Source of the DNA: a virus | UHGV virus genome: UHGV-0266139 | Reading direction: 5' to 3' (one strand) | DNA: 10,581 nt | Shown: positions 1,087 to 8,489 of the stretch, piece after piece | Layout of the letters: every line of letters starts with the position of its first letter | How positions within the stretch are numbered: the stretch's first letter is position 1 | Program-made: the position numbers and the translations under genes | The notes under the pieces: model-generated | What the model saw: the letters and a program-made list of their open reading frames with translations, nothing else | Database searches by the model: none | What the model was told of the DNA's origin: nothing

Positions 1087-2049
1087 TTAAGCTGCTTTGC
1101 GAACGTCGAACACATTTTCGAACGCATCAAAAACTTTAACTGTCATTAAATCGATGAATTGAACGGAAGAACCATTTTTCTTAATCAGGTATTTGTTCCA
1201 TTCTGCAACGTCTGCAACAGTACGCTTTTCGTTAAGCAGAATCCAAAGAGCTTGTTTGTCTTTAGATTCAACCGCTTGAGTAAAGAAGTCTTTAGATTCA
1301 ACTTCCTGATCTGCTTCAACTGCCACAGGAGCAACTTCTTTAGCTTTCAGTTCTTCAATCTCAGCTTTCTGTGCTTCGATGATCTGGTCTTTTTCTTTCA
1401 GTGCAGCTTTCAGTTCTGCGATCTGTGCTTCCAGTGCAGAGAAACGATCTTCAACAGCAACCGGAGAAACAGCATTCACCTGTGCTTCCAGTTCCAGGAA
1501 TGCTTCGCAAGATTCAATGCGTTCTTTCTCTTCACCTTCATAAGCAACCAGTTCTACAACTTCTTTTTCGGTAGCGTGGCTGTTAAAGAATACAGCAAAG
1601 TAAGGATTGCCGGATTTAGTGAAGTTCAGTTTAGCTTTTCCGGTAACTTCTTTACGACGACCAAAGGTAATGTTGCAATCAGCGGTATCCTGAAAATCCA
1701 TGTTAGGAGCGGAAACGATAGCAGTATCACCAGCAATAACCAGGTGGAACAGTTCAGAAGAGTTCTTAACGGTGAAAGTAACGATGTGGTCTACTGCAAC
1801 GTCTTTAGCAGGTTTAACGCGGTCGATTGCTTTACGAACGCCGTTAGACAGTTTACCGTCAACACCAAAGCCAGCCGCGATCAGTGCTTCACGATGTGCT
1901 TTAAAGCCAGCGAAAGCGGATTTCTGCTGCGCAAAGGAAACATGAGCAACAACTTTCGGCTGAATCTTCTTGTTTGCTTCGGTGCCAAATTTGATAACTG
2001 ATTTAGCGTTGGTTACTTCGTTAGTGAAAAAGTTAGCGGAAAATAACAT
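1087..2049 (-). CDS. Hypothetical protein, 320 aa: N-terminal domain, central A/E/K-rich coiled-coil region with an internal short repeat, C-terminal domain
   Basis: ATG at 2049 with AGGAG 8 nt upstream; long ORF whose antisense frame is F/C-rich junk. Internal DNA repeat TCTTTAGATTCAAC at about 1257-1270 and 1289-1302 (encoding VESKD twice). No family recognised. Confidence 0.7.
   Translation of the reverse strand: MLFSANFFTNEVTNAKSVIKFGTEANKKIQPKVVAHVSFAQQKSAFAGFKAHREALIAAGFGVDGKLSNGVRKAIDRVKPAKDVAVDHIVTFTVKNSSELFHLVIAGDTAIVSAPNMDFQDTADCNITFGRRKEVTGKAKLNFTKSGNPYFAVFFNSHATEKEVVELVAYEGEEKERIESCEAFLELEAQVNAVSPVAVEDRFSALEAQIAELKAALKEKDQIIEAQKAEIEELKAKEVAPVAVEADQEVESKDFFTQAVESKDKQALWILLNEKRTVADVAEWNKYLIKKNGSSVQFIDLMTVKVFDAFENVFDVRKAA
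1145..1164. repeat. 20-bp perfect direct repeat ATTAAATCGATGAATTGAAC, copy 2 (inside the 3-prime end of the 320-aa gene, encoding VQFIDLM on the minus strand)
   Basis: Identical to 200-219; hand comparison. Confidence 0.6.
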
Positions 2050-2163: not shown

Positions 2164-2343
2164 TTAACAAACTTGAACGTTAATCTTTACCTGAATTTCG
2201 TATTTCTTCATTAGCTTGTAGAATCCGCTTCTATCAATTCCTTCCTTCTTAAAGAAGTTTTCCCCGCCTCGCTCAGTGTCGCTGTAAAAGCGTTTAGCAA
2301 TATCAACAATCATTTCACGAGTGAACTTAACAGGTCTAGCCAT
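2164..2343 (-). CDS. Small HTH DNA-binding protein, 59 aa (MARPVKFTREMIVDIAKRFYSDTERGGENFFKKEGIDRSGFYKLMKKYEIQVKINVQVC); first gene of the leftward operon
   Basis: Track ORF starts at a GTG (2358); the ATG at 2343 has GAGGAA 7 nt upstream. RP..F...DIA...Y....GI..FYK.MKK pattern resembles Hin/resolvase-type or Mor/C-type HTH domains (from memory). Paralogous to 5629..5856. Confidence 0.55.
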   Translation of the reverse strand: MARPVKFTREMIVDIAKRFYSDTERGGENFFKKEGIDRSGFYKLMKKYEIQVKINVQVC

Positions 2344-2443
2344 CAGTCGATTCCTCACATGTGGATTAATAATTTCTTAAAAAAGAGCATTTCGCTCTGA
2401 ACACTTGTATTTATAAAATGATTTTCAGAAAACCCTGTAAAAC

Positions 2444-2463
2444 CACTGTATATCCGATCAGTG
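2444..2463. promoter_or_regulatory. Operator-like inverted repeat CACTG-N10-CAGTG (CACTGTATATCCGATCAGTG)
   Basis: Palindromic arms seen directly; near-identical second copy at 2529-2548; lies in the control region upstream of the leftward operon. Confidence 0.35.
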
Positions 2464-2528
2464 GGAGCACGAATTGCTAAAGAGAAGATTAATTATTAAT
2501 CAATTCGTACAATATTCAACCGAAAAAG

Positions 2529-2548
2529 CACTGTATATCTAACCAGTG
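2529..2548. promoter_or_regulatory. Operator-like inverted repeat CACTG-N10-CAGTG (CACTGTATATCTAACCAGTG), second copy
   Basis: 17 of 20 positions identical to 2444-2463, same dyad arms, 85 bp away. Confidence 0.35.
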
Positions 2549-2700
2549 CTGTATGAATTAGCAGTGAATCAGGAGATTTTCAGAAGTGAACAATCATTTC
2601 ACACATGTATTTATAACGTGGAAATTCTTGCTTATCATCTATATAGGGACTGTTTAGAAAATTTCAACCCCCACCAGTGAGAAAAAGTATAAAATAATCC

Positions 2701-2729
2701 TTGACAGTTGTCAATACACTTGACCTAAG
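2701..2729. promoter_or_regulatory. TTGACA-N13-TTGACCTAAG motif (contains palindrome TTGACAGTTGTCAA), copy 1
   Basis: Same arrangement TTGACA-N13-TTGACCTAGA recurs at 4318-4346; -35-like hexamers but no good -10 at 17 bp, so promoter versus operator is undecided. Confidence 0.3.
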
Positions 2730-2912
2730 CGAGAAATGGCTATCAAATTTTTTGTTTGAAAATGGTAGATCAGGATTATCAACCTTTATAACCTATTATG
2801 GCACGGAGACCTTTTGACAATTCTTTTTAAATCATTAACTTACGCCACTTTTTGGTGATTTTTTGATTAAATAATATACAATAATTTTCTATCAAAATAT
2901 TTGATGGGAATT

Positions 2913-3105
2913 GCCCCTGAAATTCTGAATTTTTGCCCCCGAATAAAATCCCCAAGATTCCACTATCCAATTTTTGCCCCTGAAACCTACTATTTTTGCC
3001 CCTGAAATTCTGGGAAACAGTGATTTTGCCCCTCATTTTTGCCCCTGAAATGACAATAATTGCCCCTGAAAATCTAATTTTTGCCCCTGAAATTTGCCCC
3101 CGAAA
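2913..3105. repeat. Array of about 9 same-orientation direct repeats, consensus TTTTTGCCCC(T/C)GAAA, mostly 21-22 bp apart (iteron-like)
   Basis: GCCCC cores start at about 2913, 2935, 2976, 2998, 3028, 3041, 3062, 3083, 3096 (hand-counted); a further copy at 5446-5455 sits inside a terminator stem. Confidence 0.7.
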
Positions 3106-3246
3106 GGGATTGGTGAGAAAAACCATTTATAAAACATTAACTTAGCGAGGGCAAAAGCGGGGAATCGGGCGTGCATAGATATTATATAACACATTCGCTA
3201 CGCTCATGTGTAAAACCAAAAACAACAAATAACCAAAAAGATATTA

Positions 3247-3265
3247 GGAGGGCGTAGCCCGACTG
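3247..3265. repeat. About 20-bp direct repeat GGAGGGCGTAGCCCGACTG, copy 1
   Basis: Matches 3678-3697 (GGAGGGCTTTAGCCCGACTG) with one indel; the two copies bracket the CTAG-rich module. Confidence 0.5.
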
Positions 3266-3285
3266 CGCGAAGCGCCAACCAATTG

Positions 3286-3530
3286 CTTCTAGTAACAACT
3301 AATTTAAACTAGATGATACTAGATGGTCTTAGAAGGAATTAACTAGTTTGCTCGCTCGCTTCGCTCACTCTCAAACGTCTGCGACGCCACTGCGTGGCAT
3401 CGAGAATCACTTCTGAAAGGATTTTCTCGAAAGGGATTTAAACTAGTTACTAACTGATTCTAGAAAGATAGTAATAATCACTTTGAAGATAATAGTAGTT
3501 AACTGGTTACTAGATGATTCTAGATCACTT
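3286..3530. repeat. CTAG-rich repeat module: units at 3308-3326, 3441-3467 and 3501-3527 (AACT(A/G)GTTACTA..TGATTCTAGA) flanking a GC-rich core at about 3348-3410
   Basis: Eight CTAG tetramers within about 235 bp against a handful across the rest of the window (by eye, not exhaustively counted); units 3441-3467 and 3501-3527 match at 21 of 27 positions; the core contains GCTC direct repeats and a GCCAC/GTGGC dyad. Confidence 0.6.
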
Positions 3531-3553
3531 TAATGATCATGAAAGGTATTGGT

Positions 3554-3582
3554 ATCCCTTCGGGATTGCAACCTTCGGTTGC
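3554..3582 (+). other. Two adjacent short hairpins: ATCCC/GGGAT (3554-3566) and GCAACC/GGTTGC (3568-3582), both with TTC(G) loops
   Basis: Inverted repeats seen directly; no clean T run follows, so RNA structure or processing site rather than a canonical terminator. Confidence 0.3.
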
Positions 3583-3677
3583 TAAATTGCTTCCTGATTA
3601 TTATTTCTCCAAAAGAAAGATTCTTATATTCTAAAGATACTTCTTCGTTTTGATGATGATTTAATCAAATCTATGAA

Positions 3678-3697
3678 GGAGGGCTTTAGCCCGACTG
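3678..3697. repeat. About 20-bp direct repeat GGAGGGCTTTAGCCCGACTG, copy 2
   Basis: See 3247-3265. Confidence 0.5.
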
Positions 3698-3786
3698 AAT
3701 ACAATCACCTTCTAAAAGAGATAAATTTTTCTCGTTATAAATAATAGTGAACTTACTTGATTCACTTTCTTTTAGAGGATACCACT

Positions 3787-4245
3787 ATGATCAATACTAA
3801 AACTCCTTTCGTACTTCTGGGTCTGGACTCTGAAAACTATGGTAACTTCCATATGCTAGAAGTTTTCGCTAATCGTGGTTATAACATCATTCGTCATTCC
3901 GAAGACTCCAACTACTCAACTGCTTTCTACGCTTTAAAACGAAATGGTCGTCCTACTGTGATCATCGACTGTTTTACTGATGAGGGTCGTCTTCAATACA
4001 ACGATATTCCAGCAATTATTGTTCGTGATGATCTGCCGTTTCAAGTCCGTGAGTATGACGTTGATTTAGGCTCTTACTACTCTTTAGCGGAACTTGACCA
4101 GATTATGGCTGATTACGGTAAACAACCCGCTCAGGAAGCCCCAGAACAAGATGAAGAAGATGAGGAAGACGAAGACTACGCTCCAATCTGTTTCTCTTCT
4201 CAGAATGGCTTCTACGGTTACGATGAAGGCTTAGATATGCTGTAA
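3787..4245 (+). CDS. Highly acidic protein, 152 aa (about 31 D/E against about 10 K/R), with poly-acidic stretch EQDEEDEEDED near the C-terminus; function unknown, candidate DNA mimic or other host-interaction protein
   Basis: Track ORF starts at TTG 3757; the ATG at 3787 has AGAGGA 7 nt upstream. Codon choice looks like a highly expressed enterobacterial gene (CTG, CGT, GGT, TTC, AAC, TAC), judged by eye. First gene downstream of the repeat-rich region. Confidence 0.7.
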   Translation: MINTKTPFVLLGLDSENYGNFHMLEVFANRGYNIIRHSEDSNYSTAFYALKRNGRPTVIIDCFTDEGRLQYNDIPAIIVRDDLPFQVREYDVDLGSYYSLAELDQIMADYGKQPAQEAPEQDEEDEEDEDYAPICFSSQNGFYGYDEGLDML

Positions 4246-4280
4246 GTTAGGTCAACCCTTTGGTGTCTTGTCAAGGGGTA

Positions 4281-4309
4281 TTGGCAAAAATTTATGACTT
4301 TTTTATGAT
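4281..4309 (+). promoter_or_regulatory. Near-consensus sigma70-type promoter: TTGGCA (4281-4286), 17-bp spacer, TATGAT (4304-4309)
   Basis: 5 of 6 matches in each hexamer with optimal spacing; sits between the acidic gene and the 48-aa ORF. Assumes an enterobacterial-type host. Confidence 0.45.
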
Positions 4310-5437: not shown

Positions 5438-5445
5438 TAATTTTT

Positions 5446-5470
5446 GCCCCTGAATTTCAGGGGCTTTTTT
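5446..5470 (+). terminator. Strong intrinsic terminator: GCCCCTG (5446-5452) / CAGGGGC (5458-5464), T6 run (5465-5470); built on a copy of the GCCCCTGAA repeat
   Basis: Perfect GC-rich stem followed directly by TTTTTT, 9 nt after the Rha-like stop codon. Confidence 0.75.
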
Positions 5471-5473
5471 GTA

Positions 5474-5509
5474 TCTGTAGATGCGCTGAACTTTAAGCGC
5501 ATCTACAGA
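5474..5509. promoter_or_regulatory. Perfect 13-bp inverted repeat TCTGTAGATGCGC-N10-GCGCATCTACAGA, followed by palindrome GATGCATC (5514-5521)
   Basis: Seen directly; lies in the intergenic gap between the Rha terminator and the minus-strand cassette; candidate protein-binding site or second hairpin. Confidence 0.4.
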
Positions 5510-5587
5510 TTTGGATGCATCTATAGATCAGTCAAGATTTGGACTCAGCTTCGAGATGAGCGCAGTTTTGCGCCGATTGTTTTACAT

Positions 5588-5613
5588 ACAAAAAAGCCAC
5601 TCCGAAGAGTGGC
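5588..5613 (-). terminator. Minus-strand intrinsic terminator: GCCACTC (5596-5602) / GAGTGGC (5607-5613) with a run of T on the minus strand (plus-strand A run 5588-5595)
   Basis: On the minus strand the stem has a UUCG loop and is followed by UUUUUUGU; 16 nt past the stop codon of gene 5629..5856. Confidence 0.65.
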
Positions 5614-5628
5614 AAAGAGAATCAAAAC

Positions 5629-5856
5629 TCAAAAACCTGTTGCTTCTACGATCTGACCATCACCGATCTGAACATAGAATTTAATGTCTAACTTCTTCAT
5701 ATTCTTATAGAATTGGGCGATTGAGATCCCATGTTCACTAAGAATCTGTTCTTTCGCTTCCTTACCACGATCCGCTGTATAATAAGCGTAGGCAATATCA
5801 GCCATCTGTTCAGCGTTAAAACGGGCAGGGCGACCGCGAGTAGCTTTAGTAGTCAT
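5629..5856 (-). CDS. Small HTH DNA-binding protein, 75 aa (MTTKATRGRPARFNAEQMADIAYAYY...GISIAQFYKNMKKLDIK...), paralog of 2164..2343
   Basis: Track ORF starts at GTG 5889; ATGs at 5862 and 5856, the latter 9 nt from GGAG. RGRPARF then helix-turn-helix pattern resembles the Hin/resolvase-type DNA-binding domain (GRPR arm plus HTH), from memory. The start could be 5862. Confidence 0.55.
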   Translation of the reverse strand: MTTKATRGRPARFNAEQMADIAYAYYTADRGKEAKEQILSEHGISIAQFYKNMKKLDIKFYVQIGDGQIVEATGF

Positions 5857-5891: not shown

Positions 5892-6494
5892 TTATTTAGA
5901 GGACTTACATTTTATCGGAAAAAGTTCTCCATCGTCAACCGACATAAAGAACTCTGCCTTAATCCCGTACTTCTTCAACCGTGAATAGTATGTACCCCGA
6001 CTAATATCAACCTTGCGAAGCACTTCGAAGAACTCTTTAGGATTCCTGTAATAATGGCTATAACGCACGTTAGCGAGTTCAACGAATAGTTCCCTTGTAT
6101 CACCATAGCCTTTCTTGAAAGCCTCGTTACGATAGCGTGTAATAGCGTGATTCGATCTCTTCTGTTTAAGCACTTCCCTGATCGGCTTCCACTGCAACCG
6201 ATAGATTGGACCGCCATCCACTCGATAATAACGCTTGATATCAAAATCAAACCATTCACGGACTCGCTGAAACTCTGTCTGTGATGTTCGGTGCTTCTTA
6301 AAGAAGTTATGAATATCGGTATACCCATGATCGCGATACAACTCGATTAAAATCTCTTTCGCTTCCTCACGACTAAAGCCAGATGTTGTGTAGTCGGTTT
6401 TTAAATGCTTATGCTTAACGGGTAAACGATATTCATGATCGGTACAAGACAAGGCTAATTCTAATTCATCTCTTTCTTGCTGATTAATTAGCAT
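5892..6494 (-). CDS. Basic 200-aa protein rich in R/K/Y with a C-terminal HTH module related to the two small HTH proteins; candidate DNA-binding regulator
   Basis: ATG at 6494 with AGGAGG about 4 nt upstream; C-terminal ...[26 protein letters not shown] aligns without gaps to the 75-aa protein (IS, Y, KK, IK). No nuclease motif (GIY-YIG, HNH, LAGLIDADG) seen. Confidence 0.65.
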
Positions 6495-6581: not shown

Positions 6582-8489
6582 ATGAAACTAATTTCTAATA
6601 AGGCCAAATTAAAAAAGATTCTCAGAAATGCAGCCAAATATATTACGCCACCGCCTAAACTCCTTCCATCGGAATGGTGCGAAGCGAATATGGTGCTGGT
6701 AGATGGTCCTCAAGCTGGGGATAAAGTTAAACTGCTGTCATTCCAGAAAGGCATGATTGATGCTCCTTTCCTTGAGAACAAGAAAAAGTATGTTCTGATG
6801 ACCAGTGCGCAGATCGGAAAGACTACCATCCTGAACGGCATCCTGTTTAACCAGATGGCTAACGATCCATGCAATATGATTATCGGACAATCAACCGCTA
6901 AAGAAATGTCTCAATATCTCGCTGGTAAGATCCGACCGTCTATCGAAGCATGTGATGCATTAAAAGACGTGGTTACAGACAAGAATGATCGCAATTCGGT
7001 TAATAACAATAACCAGCTACAGCTCAAAACGAATCACTTCCTGTACATGGTATCGCTTACCAGCCCATCAACCCTACGTGGTAAGACCGCAAAGGTTGGA
7101 TTACTTGACGAAATTGATGCTGCCACAGCCTCAGAAGAAGGTGATCCGGTGGCACTGGCTGCTAACCGTTTAACTACCTTTGGAGATGAAGGTCGATTAG
7201 TCGTATCCAGTACCCCGACCAGTAAGCTGGGAAGCATTAACCAGCAATGGTTATCAAGCGATATGCGTATGTTTTTTGTTCCGTGTCCTCATTGCGGGGA
7301 ACACCAGGTGATCGAGTGGGAAAACGTTCAATTTGAATGGCGTAACATCGATGGTAAGAACTTACCCGATCCTGATACCGCTCGTTATATTTGCCCCCAC
7401 TGTAAGAACGCATGGACAGAAGGGGAACGAATCAGGGCAGTAGCGCAAGGCGAGTGGAGAGCAACCCGTGAAAGTGAAGTAGCAGGATTCTGGATCAGTC
7501 GTCTGTATTCACCTTTCAGCACGATTCGCGCTTGTGTGGTTGATTTTAGTCATGCGTGGCAATCCTTTGATTTACAATCCTTTTTTAACACCGTGTTAGG
7601 CAAGGTATACGATGATCAGGACACGGCAGTAGAAGCAAATGAACTGGAACAACTCAAAACAGATGTTTCTATCGAGAATATCCCTGATGACGTGATTTTC
7701 TTGTGCTCAGGAATTGACCAGCAATTGGACCGCGCAGAATCTACCATCTTAGGTGTAGCGAAAGATAAGGTTTACATTCTGGATCACCGTAGCTTTTACG
7801 ATCATAACTGTGAACGATATGAATCCCCTGTATGGGATCGTCTGATTAACTTCAAGAAAACCAAATTCTATAACGTTAATGGTGAACGTGTGCCAATGCT
7901 CGCCAGCTTCCTTGATACATCGAACGGTCGATTCACTCAAGCCGGATACCGTATTTGCGGCAAGTGGAAGAACCTACACGCTATCAAAGGTAGTTCATCT
8001 GGTAATGCTCCAGTGATTCCGGTTAAACCTACCCGCACAGGTGGTCATGAATTGCTTATGCTGGGTGTTAACGTTGGTAAATCCGCTGTTCGTGAAATGC
8101 TGGTTAGAAACCTGAAAGATAATCCTCATATTGGCTTAGAAATATCAGAAACCGTTCCTGATGATTATCTCGATCAGCTTTTGAGTGAATCCATCAAGCG
8201 TACTACTACTGGCGTGCGTTGGGTGAAAAATCCAGGTAGTACCCGAAACGAGGCTCTCGACTGTCTGGTTTATAGCTATGCTGCTTCTCGCTACGTCCTT
8301 TCAAAAATGTCATGGGATAAACTCATTGCAATGAAAGACAGCTTAAACCGTGTTGTCGAAGAATCCGTAGAAGCTCCTAAATCGCAATCTGACGAGCAAA
8401 TAGAAGAAACTAAGCCAATCACACGACCACAACGTCAAAACATCGCCAGACGTCCAAATAGAGGCCGTAGCTGGGTAACATCGTTCTAA
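6582..8489 (+). CDS. terL: Terminase large subunit, lambda gpA type, 635 aa
   Basis: ATG with GAGGG 7 nt upstream. Walker A-like SAQIGKTT, acidic VGLLDEID, zinc-ribbon CPHCGEHQ...CPHC, and blocks [32 protein letters not shown] match lambda gpA (ACPHCGEEQ, YSPFTTW, AGIDSQLDR, RNEALDCFVYALAA) from memory; size matches (lambda 641 aa). Confidence 0.9.

What the first reader, a model, noticed from the sequence alone, without database searches (positions are those of the whole stretch)
2913..3105. Phased array of about nine TTTTTGCCCCTGAAA direct repeats in non-coding DNA
Nine same-orientation copies within about 195 bp, mostly 21-22 bp apart (two helical turns), each joining a T tract to a GC core, which suggests phased bending and cooperative binding. 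A tenth copy forms the terminator stem at 5446-5464. No ORF explains it (the 99-aa minus-strand ORF is a translation artefact of the repeats). Possible roles: iterons of a replication origin, terminase recognition sites for packaging, a partition centromere, or a transcription-factor array.
Basis: seen in the sequence. Interest (0 to 1): 0.65.

Follow-up and report, generated by a model that had tools for sequence, protein, structure and literature searches.

The report
Prophage repeat array matched to orphan protein
A real, helically phased array of nine short DNA repeats in an E. coli prophage appears to be the docking site for a neighbouring protein of unknown family; related prophages carry at least eight matched protein and repeat pairs, most likely each phage's own replication origin and initiator.

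Summary
Eight exact and one degenerate same-strand copies of TTGCCCCYGAA lie at 2911-3104, against 0.25 expected by chance. They are helically phased and non-coding. The window is part of a ~35-kb prophage inserted in ycdX of E. coli, with relatives in Salmonella and Proteus. All relatives keep an array at the same place in a 1.3-1.7-kb gene-free gap, but the repeat sequence comes in at least eight types. In 49 of 49 loci the type matches the N-terminal domain of one adjacent orphan protein, p320 (window 1087-2049, minus strand). No other gene sorts this way, including the HTH gene lying between p320 and the array, the Rha-like protein and the Nu1-like small terminase. So the array is very probably p320's binding-site array. 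I infer that it is the phage's lytic replication origin (iterons plus initiator, comparable to λ O/oriλ). The reasons are copy number, phasing, a conserved A-rich tract and hairpins beside every array type, and the lack of any other replication gene. An activator array for the rightward early operon is the main rival. Packaging, partition and coding roles are disfavoured. The "tenth copy" is an ordinary terminator that travels with the Rha gene, independently of array type.

The parts
2906..3109 (+). Type-1 repeat array of nine units with consensus AATTTTTGCCCCTGAAAT. Cores are at 2911-2921, 2933-2943, 2974-2984, 2996-3006, 3026-3036 (degenerate, TTGCCCCTCAT), 3039-3049, 3060-3070, 3081-3091 and 3094-3104.
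   Evidence: The array is conserved in copy number and spacing in more than 25 related loci. Compared with the Salmonella type-1 array, cores are 96% identical and spacers 77%.
1087..2049 (-). p320, the inferred cognate array-binding protein. It has a β-rich N-domain (about residues 1-170) that sets specificity, a coiled coil at about 199-237, and a small helical C-domain at about 255-316.
   Evidence: The N-domain type matches the array type in 49 of 49 loci across 8 types. The lowest within-type identity (68%) exceeds the highest between-type identity (42%), and this is true of no other gene. It is an orphan: 12 representatives in 1.84 billion proteins, with no Pfam, PHROG, NCBIfam, PDB or fold match. 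The AF2 model has mean pLDDT 61.
2945..2963 (+). A single AAAATCCCCAAGATTCCAC element in the 41-bp 'skipped' in-phase slot of the array. It is nearly identical to the repeat unit of the type-7 array (L070), so it looks like a fossil of array exchange.
3105..3211 (+). Conserved segment directly right of the array. It includes CTTAGCGAGGGCAAAAG (3141-3157), the type-1 version of a GC-rich element found right of every array type (GAAAGCCAG..GAC..GGCTTAGAGGGG), and the invariant TGCATAGATATTATAT (-10-like on both strands).
   Evidence: The apparent inverted repeat copy at 3146-3156 overlaps this backbone element, so it may not be a true binding site.
3212..3246 (+). A-rich, T-poor low-complexity tract (AAAACCAAAAACAACAAATAACCAAAAAGATATTA). 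It is a candidate DNA-unwinding element or a 5' leader.
   Evidence: It holds the highest A-minus-T 50-bp window of the whole gap. Equivalent non-homologous tracts lie 26-122 bp right of the array in 7 of 9 gaps and 5 of 7 types.
3250..3275 (+). Two short GC hairpins, GGGC-GTA-GCCC (3250-3260) and GCGC-GAAG-CGC (3265-3275). Relatives have hairpins with different stems at the same position.
   Evidence: for example GCCCC-TGCG-GGGGC, GCGCCC-TGCG-GGGCGC, GCGGC-TAC-GCCGC. No formal covariation statistics were run.
2164..2343 (-). hth60, a small HTH-like protein and the first gene of the leftward hth60-p320-p113 operon. It is not the specificity partner of the array.
   Evidence: Identical alleles occur with different array types (highest between-type identity 100%).
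2444..2548 (.). Two LexA-box-like sites (CACTGTATATCCGATCAGTG at 2444-2463 and CACTGTATATCTAACCAGTG at 2529-2548), 100-205 bp upstream of hth60. They suggest SOS control of the p320 operon.
   Evidence: About 0.01 sites per gap are expected. L041 has an 18/20 match and L042 and L070 have three sites each, but about half of the variants have none.
5441..5470 (+). Solitary repeat-like copy, which is the left arm of the intrinsic terminator after the Rha-like gene. It is NOT part of the array system.
   Evidence: The same terminator is present in type-4 and type-3b prophages and absent from the type-1 Salmonella relative L041.

Best explanation
The array is the cognate binding-site array for p320, the 320-aa orphan protein encoded 860 bp to its left. 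p320's β-rich N-terminal domain reads one ~13-15-bp unit (a T tract plus GCCCCTGAA). Its coiled coil oligomerises the protein. Because nearly all units lie on one face of the helix, many p320 molecules can assemble side by side into one nucleoprotein complex.

I infer that this complex is the phage's lytic replication origin. After SOS induction relieves LexA control of the hth60-p320 operon, p320 would load on the iterons, open the neighbouring A-rich tract and recruit the host replisome, as λ O does at oriλ and plasmid Rep proteins do at iterons.

Shown: the array is real, phased and non-coding; the array sequence and the p320 N-domain are swapped together across at least 8 types; no other gene is linked to array type.

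Inferred: physical binding, SOS timing and the origin function.
For: Array and p320 are a matched pair:
- All syntenic relatives keep an array at the same place but with unrelated repeat sequences: TTTTTGCCCCTGAAA, CTAGGGATR, ATCGYAAAC, ACCTACACTA, GATGTACAAG, RGCATYYGAA, TWTCCCCGYG and TGGAATCTAGGGGATTTT.
- Array type matches p320 N-domain type in 49 of 49 loci.
- p320N is 68-100% identical within a type and at most 42% between types. TerS, hth60, p152, Rha, p74, p200 and TerL each have 98.5-100% identical alleles in prophages with different arrays.
- The hth60 gene and the left flank (window 2352-2904) lie between p320 and the array, yet are 90% identical to those of a prophage with a different array type. 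The coupling is therefore functional rather than hitch-hiking.
- Repeat cores are 96% conserved and spacers 77% between E. coli and Salmonella type-1 arrays.

For an origin specifically:
- There are 9-17 copies per array, with spacings dominated by multiples of about 10.5-11 bp.
- Every array type is followed by a GC element, an A-rich strand-asymmetric tract and GC hairpins. This resembles the lambdoid origin, described as iterons flanked by an AT-rich tract (PMC7466680).
- No replication gene of any known family was found in the genes scanned, which were the early region and the integration/lysis end; for the tail module I relied on the PGAP product names.
- p320's layout, with a type-specific DNA-binding N-domain and exchangeable C-domains, parallels λ O as I recall it.
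- LexA-like boxes upstream of the operon fit a lytic-phase function.
Against: - There is no direct evidence of binding or of replication.
- No DnaA boxes, IHF sites or strongly AT-rich (≥85%) segment are consistently placed beside the arrays.
- The A-rich tract and hairpins could equally be a 5' leader of the rightward operon, which has no recognisable σ70 promoter of its own.
- Tandem 11-bp arrays (types 2 and 3) are more typical of ParR-type centromeres or Cox/Apl-type regulators than of classical iterons.
- LexA-like boxes are missing in about half of the variants.
- p320 homologs occur on no plasmid, so there is no independent replicon context.
Confidence: 0.45

Rival explanations
1. Transcription-activator array. 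p320 is an SOS-induced early activator (or switch protein), and the array is its upstream activating sequence for a promoter just right of the array. That promoter would drive the rightward early operon (p152, the 48-aa peptide, Rha). The A-rich tract and hairpins would then be the 5' leader.
For: - The array sits in the divergent control region between the leftward and rightward operons.
- No σ70-type promoter is found on the + strand from 2638 to 4281, so the rightward operon may need an activator.
- An invariant -10-like TATTAT lies about 75 bp right of the array, and a conserved GC element with a GACA-like motif follows the other array types.
- Type-specific regulator and site pairs are a classic mosaic module in temperate phages (established knowledge).
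- The covariation evidence fits this model as well as it fits an origin.
Against: - Nine to seventeen phased sites is far more than known activators use.
- No -35/-10 pair is conserved at a fixed distance from the arrays across types.
- About 680 bp separate the array from the first rightward gene.
- This model leaves the phage with no candidate initiator or origin at all.
Confidence: 0.3
2. Packaging signal. The array is a cosB- or pac-like recognition site for terminase.
For: The phage has a λ-type gpA terminase and portal, and no small-terminase gene lies directly upstream of TerL. Terminase small subunits are known to bind repeated sites, a point I take from established knowledge.
Against: - A Nu1-like small terminase (PHROG 57, E=2e-15) lies about 3.5 kb to the left, and identical alleles of it occur with different array types.
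- TerL does not covary either: L041 and L042 share 95% TerL but have different arrays.
- A conserved GC-rich region directly upstream of the TerS gene occupies the canonical cos position.
Confidence: 0.05
3. Partition centromere or another architectural, silencing or handcuffing site bound by p320, with no origin or promoter function.
For: p320 has a coiled coil that could bridge DNA segments.
Against: All 78 matches in complete E. coli genomes are chromosomal and none is on a plasmid. The element integrates into ycdX through a serine recombinase. No ParA, ParM or TubZ-like gene was found.
Confidence: 0.07
4. The repeats are a coding or chance feature: the 99-aa minus-strand ORF is real, or the array is a random low-complexity stretch.
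For: An ORF of 99 aa spans 2827-3126 on the minus strand, and gene callers placed short ORFs there in some contigs.
Against: - Whole-unit indels of 13, 22 or about 43 bp shift the reading frame among close relatives.
- The gene calls are inconsistent and PGAP calls no gene.
- None of 200 shuffles reaches the observed copy number.
- Relatives replace the whole sequence with other repeats at the same position.
Confidence: 0.01

Closest known systems
Lambdoid phage origin: O protein with oriλ iterons
   Same: A phage-encoded initiator of about 300 aa binds several iterons, an AT-rich tract sits beside them, and a multi-protein 'O-some' forms; λ has 4 iterons and Stx phages have 6 (PMC7466680). 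From established knowledge, the N-terminal DNA-binding half of O and the iterons differ together among lambdoid phages, while the C-terminal half contacts the helicase loader. That is the same modular logic seen here: a type-specific N-domain with exchangeable C-domains.
   Different: - oriλ lies inside the O gene, whereas this array is non-coding and 860 bp from the p320 gene, with another gene in between.
- λ iterons are internally palindromic 18-19-mers, as I recall; these units are asymmetric 13-15-mers.
- p320 shows no sequence or fold similarity to O.
- No P-like loader was identified.
- Origin activity has not been tested.
Plasmid iteron origins: P1 RepA, F RepE, R6K π, pSC101 RepA
   Same: These have 3-14 same-orientation repeats with a period of about 21-22 bp (two helical turns), a single plasmid-encoded initiator and reliance on the host replisome (established knowledge). 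Here the spacings are 21-22 bp, 41-43 bp and 13 bp, with 8 of 9 copies on one helical face.
   Different: - There are no winged-helix Rep domains (no Pfam or NCBIfam hit).
- There are no DnaA boxes.
- The element is an integrated prophage rather than a plasmid, and p320 has no plasmid homologs.
- No inverted half-iterons lie at the p320 promoter in type 1.
Type II partition centromere: R1 parC with ParR
   Same: The type-2 and type-3 arrays here are 7-8 tandem 11-bp units plus dispersed copies.
   Different: There is no ParM-type or ParA-type NTPase, the element is integrated, p320 is three times the size of ParR and has a different predicted fold, and the type-1 array is not strictly tandem.
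P2 Cox and 186 Apl repeat arrays
   Same: In these systems small phage proteins bind 5-7 same-orientation repeats spaced about one helical turn apart in a divergent control region (established knowledge).
   Different: Those proteins are HTH proteins of about 80-90 aa that double as excisionases for tyrosine integrases. This phage uses a serine recombinase about 4 kb or more away, and its small HTH proteins do not covary with the array.

Membership tests
Iteron-type replication origin | Several same-orientation repeats in helical phase | tested here: met
   Nine copies; Rayleigh R=0.70, p≈0.008 at 10.5 bp per turn.
Iteron-type replication origin | A cognate initiator encoded nearby whose DNA-binding part is specific for the repeats | tested here: inconclusive
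   Covariation of the p320 N-domain with array type is complete (49 of 49 loci, 8 types). Binding and initiator activity are inferred and have not been shown.
Iteron-type replication origin | An adjacent AT-rich DNA-unwinding element | tested here: inconclusive
   An A-rich, T-poor tract lies 26-122 bp right of the array in 7 of 9 gaps. It is only about 75% AT, and no ≥85% AT segment is consistently placed.
Iteron-type replication origin | Host-factor sites (DnaA boxes, IHF) | tested here: not met
   No consistent TTWTNCACA or WATCAANNNNTTR sites were found beside the arrays. These sites are not universal among iteron origins.
Iteron-type replication origin | The initiator belongs to a known Rep or O family | tested here: not met
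   There is no Pfam, PHROG, NCBIfam or PDB sequence hit and no fold match.
Iteron-type replication origin | Supports initiator-dependent autonomous replication | not testable with these tools
   This needs a conditional-replicon assay or marker-frequency analysis.
λ-type cos site (cosB) | Repeats lie next to cosN, directly upstream of the small-terminase gene | tested here: not met
   The Nu1-like TerS gene (PHROG 57, E=2e-15) is about 3.5 kb to the left and TerL is 3.5 kb to the right. A conserved GC-rich region sits upstream of TerS instead.
λ-type cos site (cosB) | Repeats covary with the small-terminase DNA-binding domain | tested here: not met
   Identical TerS alleles (100%) occur with different array types.
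Partition centromere (parC/parS) | Adjacent partition NTPase and adaptor genes | tested here: not met
   No ParA, ParM or TubZ family was found in the genes scanned or in the PGAP product names for the rest of the prophage.
Partition centromere (parC/parS) | Extrachromosomal maintenance | tested here: not met
   All 78 places are on chromosomes and none on plasmids. The element is integrated in ycdX.
Transcription-factor site array (UAS or operator) | A promoter at a fixed distance from the sites | tested here: inconclusive
   The consensus scan reports no σ70 promoter there. A -10-like TATTAT is invariant in type 1, but no conserved -35/-10 geometry holds across types.
Protein-coding sequence (99-aa ORF 2827-3126, minus strand) | The reading frame is preserved among relatives | tested here: not met
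   Indels of 13, 22 and about 43 bp occur among close relatives, and PGAP calls no CDS.

The most novel reading that the evidence does not exclude
p320 founds a new class of phage replication initiators with a previously unseen β-rich sequence-specific DNA-binding domain. The prophage family carries at least eight naturally orthogonal initiator and origin pairs that are exchanged as split modules. At least some members, including this window, would be temperate phages whose early operon is held directly by host LexA rather than by a CI-type repressor.
Probability: 0.3. Interest if true: 0.75.

Novelty: new variant of a known kind. Interest (0 to 1): 0.6.

Why it matters
This prophage family is present in about 1.3% of complete E. 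coli genomes (70 of 5,426), and also in Shigella, Salmonella and Proteus. Its whole early region is dark matter, with no recognisable repressor, initiator, helicase or primase.

The array and p320 pairing gives the first functional handle on that region. It identifies a new sequence-specific DNA-binding domain and lays out its natural specificity repertoire: at least eight protein types, each with a known 8-15-bp target. That repertoire is a ready-made data set for working out a recognition code. If the origin reading is right, it also offers a set of orthogonal origin and initiator pairs for engineering.

The work also shows how covariation across mosaic prophages can assign a binding protein to a repeat array without any homology information.

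Tried and rejected
- Rfam scan of the window: nothing.
- Megablast of the window against deposited phages: nothing. A distant blastn matched only an unrelated 84-bp stretch.
- Pattern scan of one-genome-per-species contigs: only chance or unrelated hits, including a tight 12-nt tandem repeat in a Comamonadaceae MAG.
- The idea that the Hin-like 'RGRP arm plus HTH' proteins (hth60, p74, p200) read the T tract and GC core: the modules align only weakly, get no family hit and do not covary with the array. Rejected as the specificity partner.
- The solitary copy at 5444 as a looping or antitermination partner of the array: rejected, because the same terminator occurs with other array types.
- The inverted copy at 3146-3156 as an operator: doubtful, because it overlaps an element conserved right of all array types.
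- p320 against plasmids and phages by tblastn: no match.
- Distant p320 homologs sit in the same prophage family, so they provide no new context.
- DnaA, IHF, GATC and ≥85% AT scans: no consistent pattern.
- Literature searches on ycdX prophages, the motif string, and iteron/prophage terms: nothing on this element.
- Phage DCP80, the only deposited relative of TerL and TerS, looks like a composite record and did not help locate cos.

Full report
OBSERVATION. The repeats are real. A search for TTGCCCCYGAA with up to one mismatch finds nine matches in the 10,581-bp window, all on the + strand. Eight lie at 2911-3104 and one at 5444. Shuffles give 0.25 expected, and none of 200 shuffles reaches nine. 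A ninth, degenerate array copy (TTGCCCCTCAT) starts at 3026. The consensus unit is AATTTTTGCCCCTGAAAT, with TTGCCCC invariant in 9 of 9 copies. Start-to-start spacings are 22, 41, 22, 30, 13, 21, 21 and 13 bp. At 10.5 bp per turn, eight of the nine copies fall within one ~90° sector of the helix (Rayleigh R=0.70, p≈0.008). TRF detects only the 3' part of the array. The 99-aa minus-strand ORF is an artefact: close relatives differ by whole-unit indels of 13, 22 or about 43 bp, gene callers disagree there, and PGAP annotates nothing in the gap.

CONTEXT. The window belongs to a prophage of about 35.3 kb inserted into the ycdX (PHP phosphatase) gene of E. coli by a large serine recombinase. Seventy of 5,426 complete E. 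coli genomes carry a relative, and all 78 matching places are chromosomal. The gene order is:
- ycdX', then a Nu1-like small terminase (p183; PHROG 57, E=2e-15) and two small genes;
- leftward p113, p320 and hth60;
- a gene-free gap of 1.4-1.7 kb that contains the array;
- rightward p152, a 48-aa peptide and a Rha-like protein;
- leftward p74 and p200;
- then gpA-type TerL, a W-like protein, a λ-type portal, head, tail and lysis genes, an endonuclease and the recombinase.
No replication, CI-type repressor or partition gene of any known family was found in the genes scanned, which were the early region and the integration/lysis end; for the tail module I relied on the PGAP product names.

KEY RESULT: THE ARRAY IS KEPT BUT ITS SEQUENCE IS SWAPPED TOGETHER WITH ONE PROTEIN DOMAIN. 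I fetched divergent syntenic prophages from E. coli, Salmonella and Proteus, all inserted in the ycdX/PHP gene. Every one has a repeat array at the same place in the gap, but the unit differs:

| Type | Repeat unit | Example loci |
|---|---|---|
| T1 | TTTTTGCCCCTGAAA | window, L041, L044 |
| T2 | CTAGGGATR, 11-bp tandem | L040, L042 |
| T3 | ATCGYAAAC, 11-bp tandem | L043 |
| T4 | ACCTACACTA | 11 loci |
| T5 | GATGTACAAG | L067 |
| T6 | RGCATYYGAA | L068 |
| T3b | TWTCCCCGYG | L059 |
| T7 | TGGAATCTAGGGGATTTT | L070 |

. Array type matches the N-terminal ~160 residues of the adjacent protein p320 in 49 of 49 loci, some of which are overlapping fetches of the same contig. For p320N, the lowest within-type identity (68%) exceeds the highest between-type identity (42%). 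For TerS, hth60, p152, Rha, p74, p200 and TerL, alleles that are 98.5-100% identical occur in prophages with different arrays, and alleles as low as 24-52% identical occur within one array type (first seen). For example, L041 and L042 share 95% TerL, 93% p74 and 89% TerS, yet they differ in both array and p320.

The DNA map shows that this is not hitch-hiking. The segment between p320 and the array (the hth60 gene and window 2352-2904) is 90% identical to that of a T3b prophage and 86% identical to that of a T5 prophage, while the array and the sequence to its right (2910-3486) are shared only with T1 prophages. Repeat cores are 96% identical (111/116) between the E. coli and Salmonella T1 arrays, against 77% (62/81, plus 17 indel positions) for spacers. 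Arrays also carry fossils of other types. A T7-like unit sits at 2945-2963 inside the T1 array, and two T4 units lie in an alternative left flank.

I conclude, with high confidence but by inference from covariation, that the array is the binding-site array of p320's N-domain.

MECHANISM. The best-supported reading is an iteron-type lytic origin with p320 as its initiator. The arguments are:
- There are 9-17 copies per array, spaced in multiples of about 10.5-11 bp.
- The layout right of every array type is conserved although the sequences are not homologous: a GC-rich element, then an A-rich and T-poor tract (the strongest A-over-T window of the whole gap in 7 of 9 gaps), then GC hairpins with varying stems. 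The lambdoid origin is likewise described as iterons flanked by an AT-rich tract (PMC7466680). A palindrome beyond that tract is my own recollection, not something I confirmed in the paper.
- p320's split into a specificity N-domain and an exchangeable C-domain parallels λ O, as I recall it.
- No other candidate initiator was found in this phage.
- LexA-box-like sites upstream of the hth60-p320 operon fit a lytic-phase function. One (2529-2548) passes the ≥14/20 match cutoff and the similar site at 2444-2463 falls just below it, against about 0.01 expected per gap. L041 has an 18/20 box.

Against this reading: there is no binding or replication evidence, no DnaA or IHF sites, no similarity of p320 to known initiators, and LexA boxes are absent in about half of the variants.

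The main rival is that p320 is an activator and the array is its UAS for the rightward early operon. That operon has no recognisable σ70 promoter, and a conserved -10-like element lies about 75 bp right of the array. The two roles are not mutually exclusive.

REJECTED ROLES.
- Packaging. The Nu1-like TerS does not covary with the array, and a conserved GC-rich region with a strong promoter lies directly upstream of its gene, which is the canonical cos position.
- Partition. The element is always integrated and has no partition NTPase.
- The HTH proteins and Rha as binders. None of them covaries with the array.
- The 'tenth copy'. The identical terminator (TAATAATTTTTGCCCCTGAATTTCAGGGGCTTTTTT) follows the Rha gene in T4 and T3b prophages, which lack both a T1 array and a T1 p320, and it is absent from the T1 Salmonella relative. 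It belongs to the Rha module.

NOVELTY AND VERDICT. Arrays of phased binding sites paired with a specific protein are a known kind of system (λ O/ori, plasmid iterons, ParR/parC). What is new here is an orphan DNA-binding protein family with at least eight matched specificities, exchanged as a split module in a widespread but undescribed family of enterobacterial prophages. The literature searches found nothing on it. I rate it a new variant of a known kind, with interest 0.6. The pairing is well supported, but the function (origin versus activator) remains to be tested.

Noticed in passing
window 2444-2463 and 2529-2548: Two LexA-box-like sites (CTG-N10-CAG; CACTGTATATCCGATCAGTG and CACTGTATATCTAACCAGTG) lie upstream of the hth60-p320 operon. 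Relatives have one to three such sites, and L041 has TACTGTATATTCATACAGTA (18/20). No CI-like repressor gene is recognisable, so some members may be held directly by host LexA.
   Followed up: partly
L001 10518-11069 (just left of the window start); window 6582-8489: The Nu1-like small terminase gene lies about 7 kb from the gpA-type large terminase gene, separated by the whole early region. A conserved GC-rich, cos-like region with a strong TTGACA promoter sits directly upstream of it. This is an unusual layout for a λ-type packaging module.
   Followed up: partly
window 2164-2343, 5629-5856 and 5892-6494 (all minus strand): Three paralogous small proteins share an 'RGRP/ARP arm plus HTH plus β-hairpin' module. 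p200 carries at least two copies of the module. None matches any family. They may be the phage's regulators or repressor.
   Followed up: partly
window 3212-3275 and equivalent positions in L040-L043, L049, L059, L067, L068, L070: Right of every array type lies an A-rich tract, then AAAGAATATTA, then one or two perfect GC hairpins whose stems differ between lineages (GGGC/GCCC, GCCCC/GGGGC, GCGCCC/GGGCGC, GCGGC/GCCGC). This looks like structural conservation through compensatory change, at the level of either RNA or single-stranded DNA.
   Followed up: partly
window 3594-3677: This 84-bp stretch is about 77% identical to unannotated intergenic DNA present 2-3 times per genome in RB49/JSE-like (Krischvirus) T4-type coliphages.
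   Followed up: no
window 3288-3530: Several CTAG-containing repeats occur here (ACTAGATGAT[A/T]CTAGAT at 3308-3323 and 3509-3525; AACTAGTTACTAAC). A recurrent GAA(A)GGGATT motif is also shared by all array types. These are probably sites for a conserved backbone protein.
   Followed up: no
window 5446-5613: Three strong hairpins lie between the convergent Rha and p74 genes: the terminator at 5446-5464, a hairpin with a perfect 14-bp stem at about 5471-5508 (CTGTAGATGCGCTGAACTTTAAGCGCATCTACAG), and a minus-strand terminator at 5613-5596.
   Followed up: no
L038 and L039 (NZ_CM177112.1, 2799509-2834834); L040-L044: The prophage always interrupts ycdX in E. coli, Salmonella and Proteus. It is about 40% GC in hosts of about 51% GC, and it carries variable cargo next to the TerS gene (HicB-like and LprI-like genes in some variants).
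   Followed up: partly
PQ671644.1 (L072, L073): Escherichia phage DCP80 is filed as a 141-kb T4-like Straboviridae genome. However, it starts with about 26 kb of a λ-type TerL/portal/tail/endolysin/TerS-like module related to this prophage family and then continues with T4-like genes (motA). It may be a chimeric assembly.
   Followed up: no
L026 and L036 (Comamonadaceae MAG JANLJE01): These contigs carry a tight tandem repeat with a 12-nt period, TTGCCCCTGAAT, at contig ends. It shares the motif by coincidence and has no relation to the prophage.
   Followed up: no
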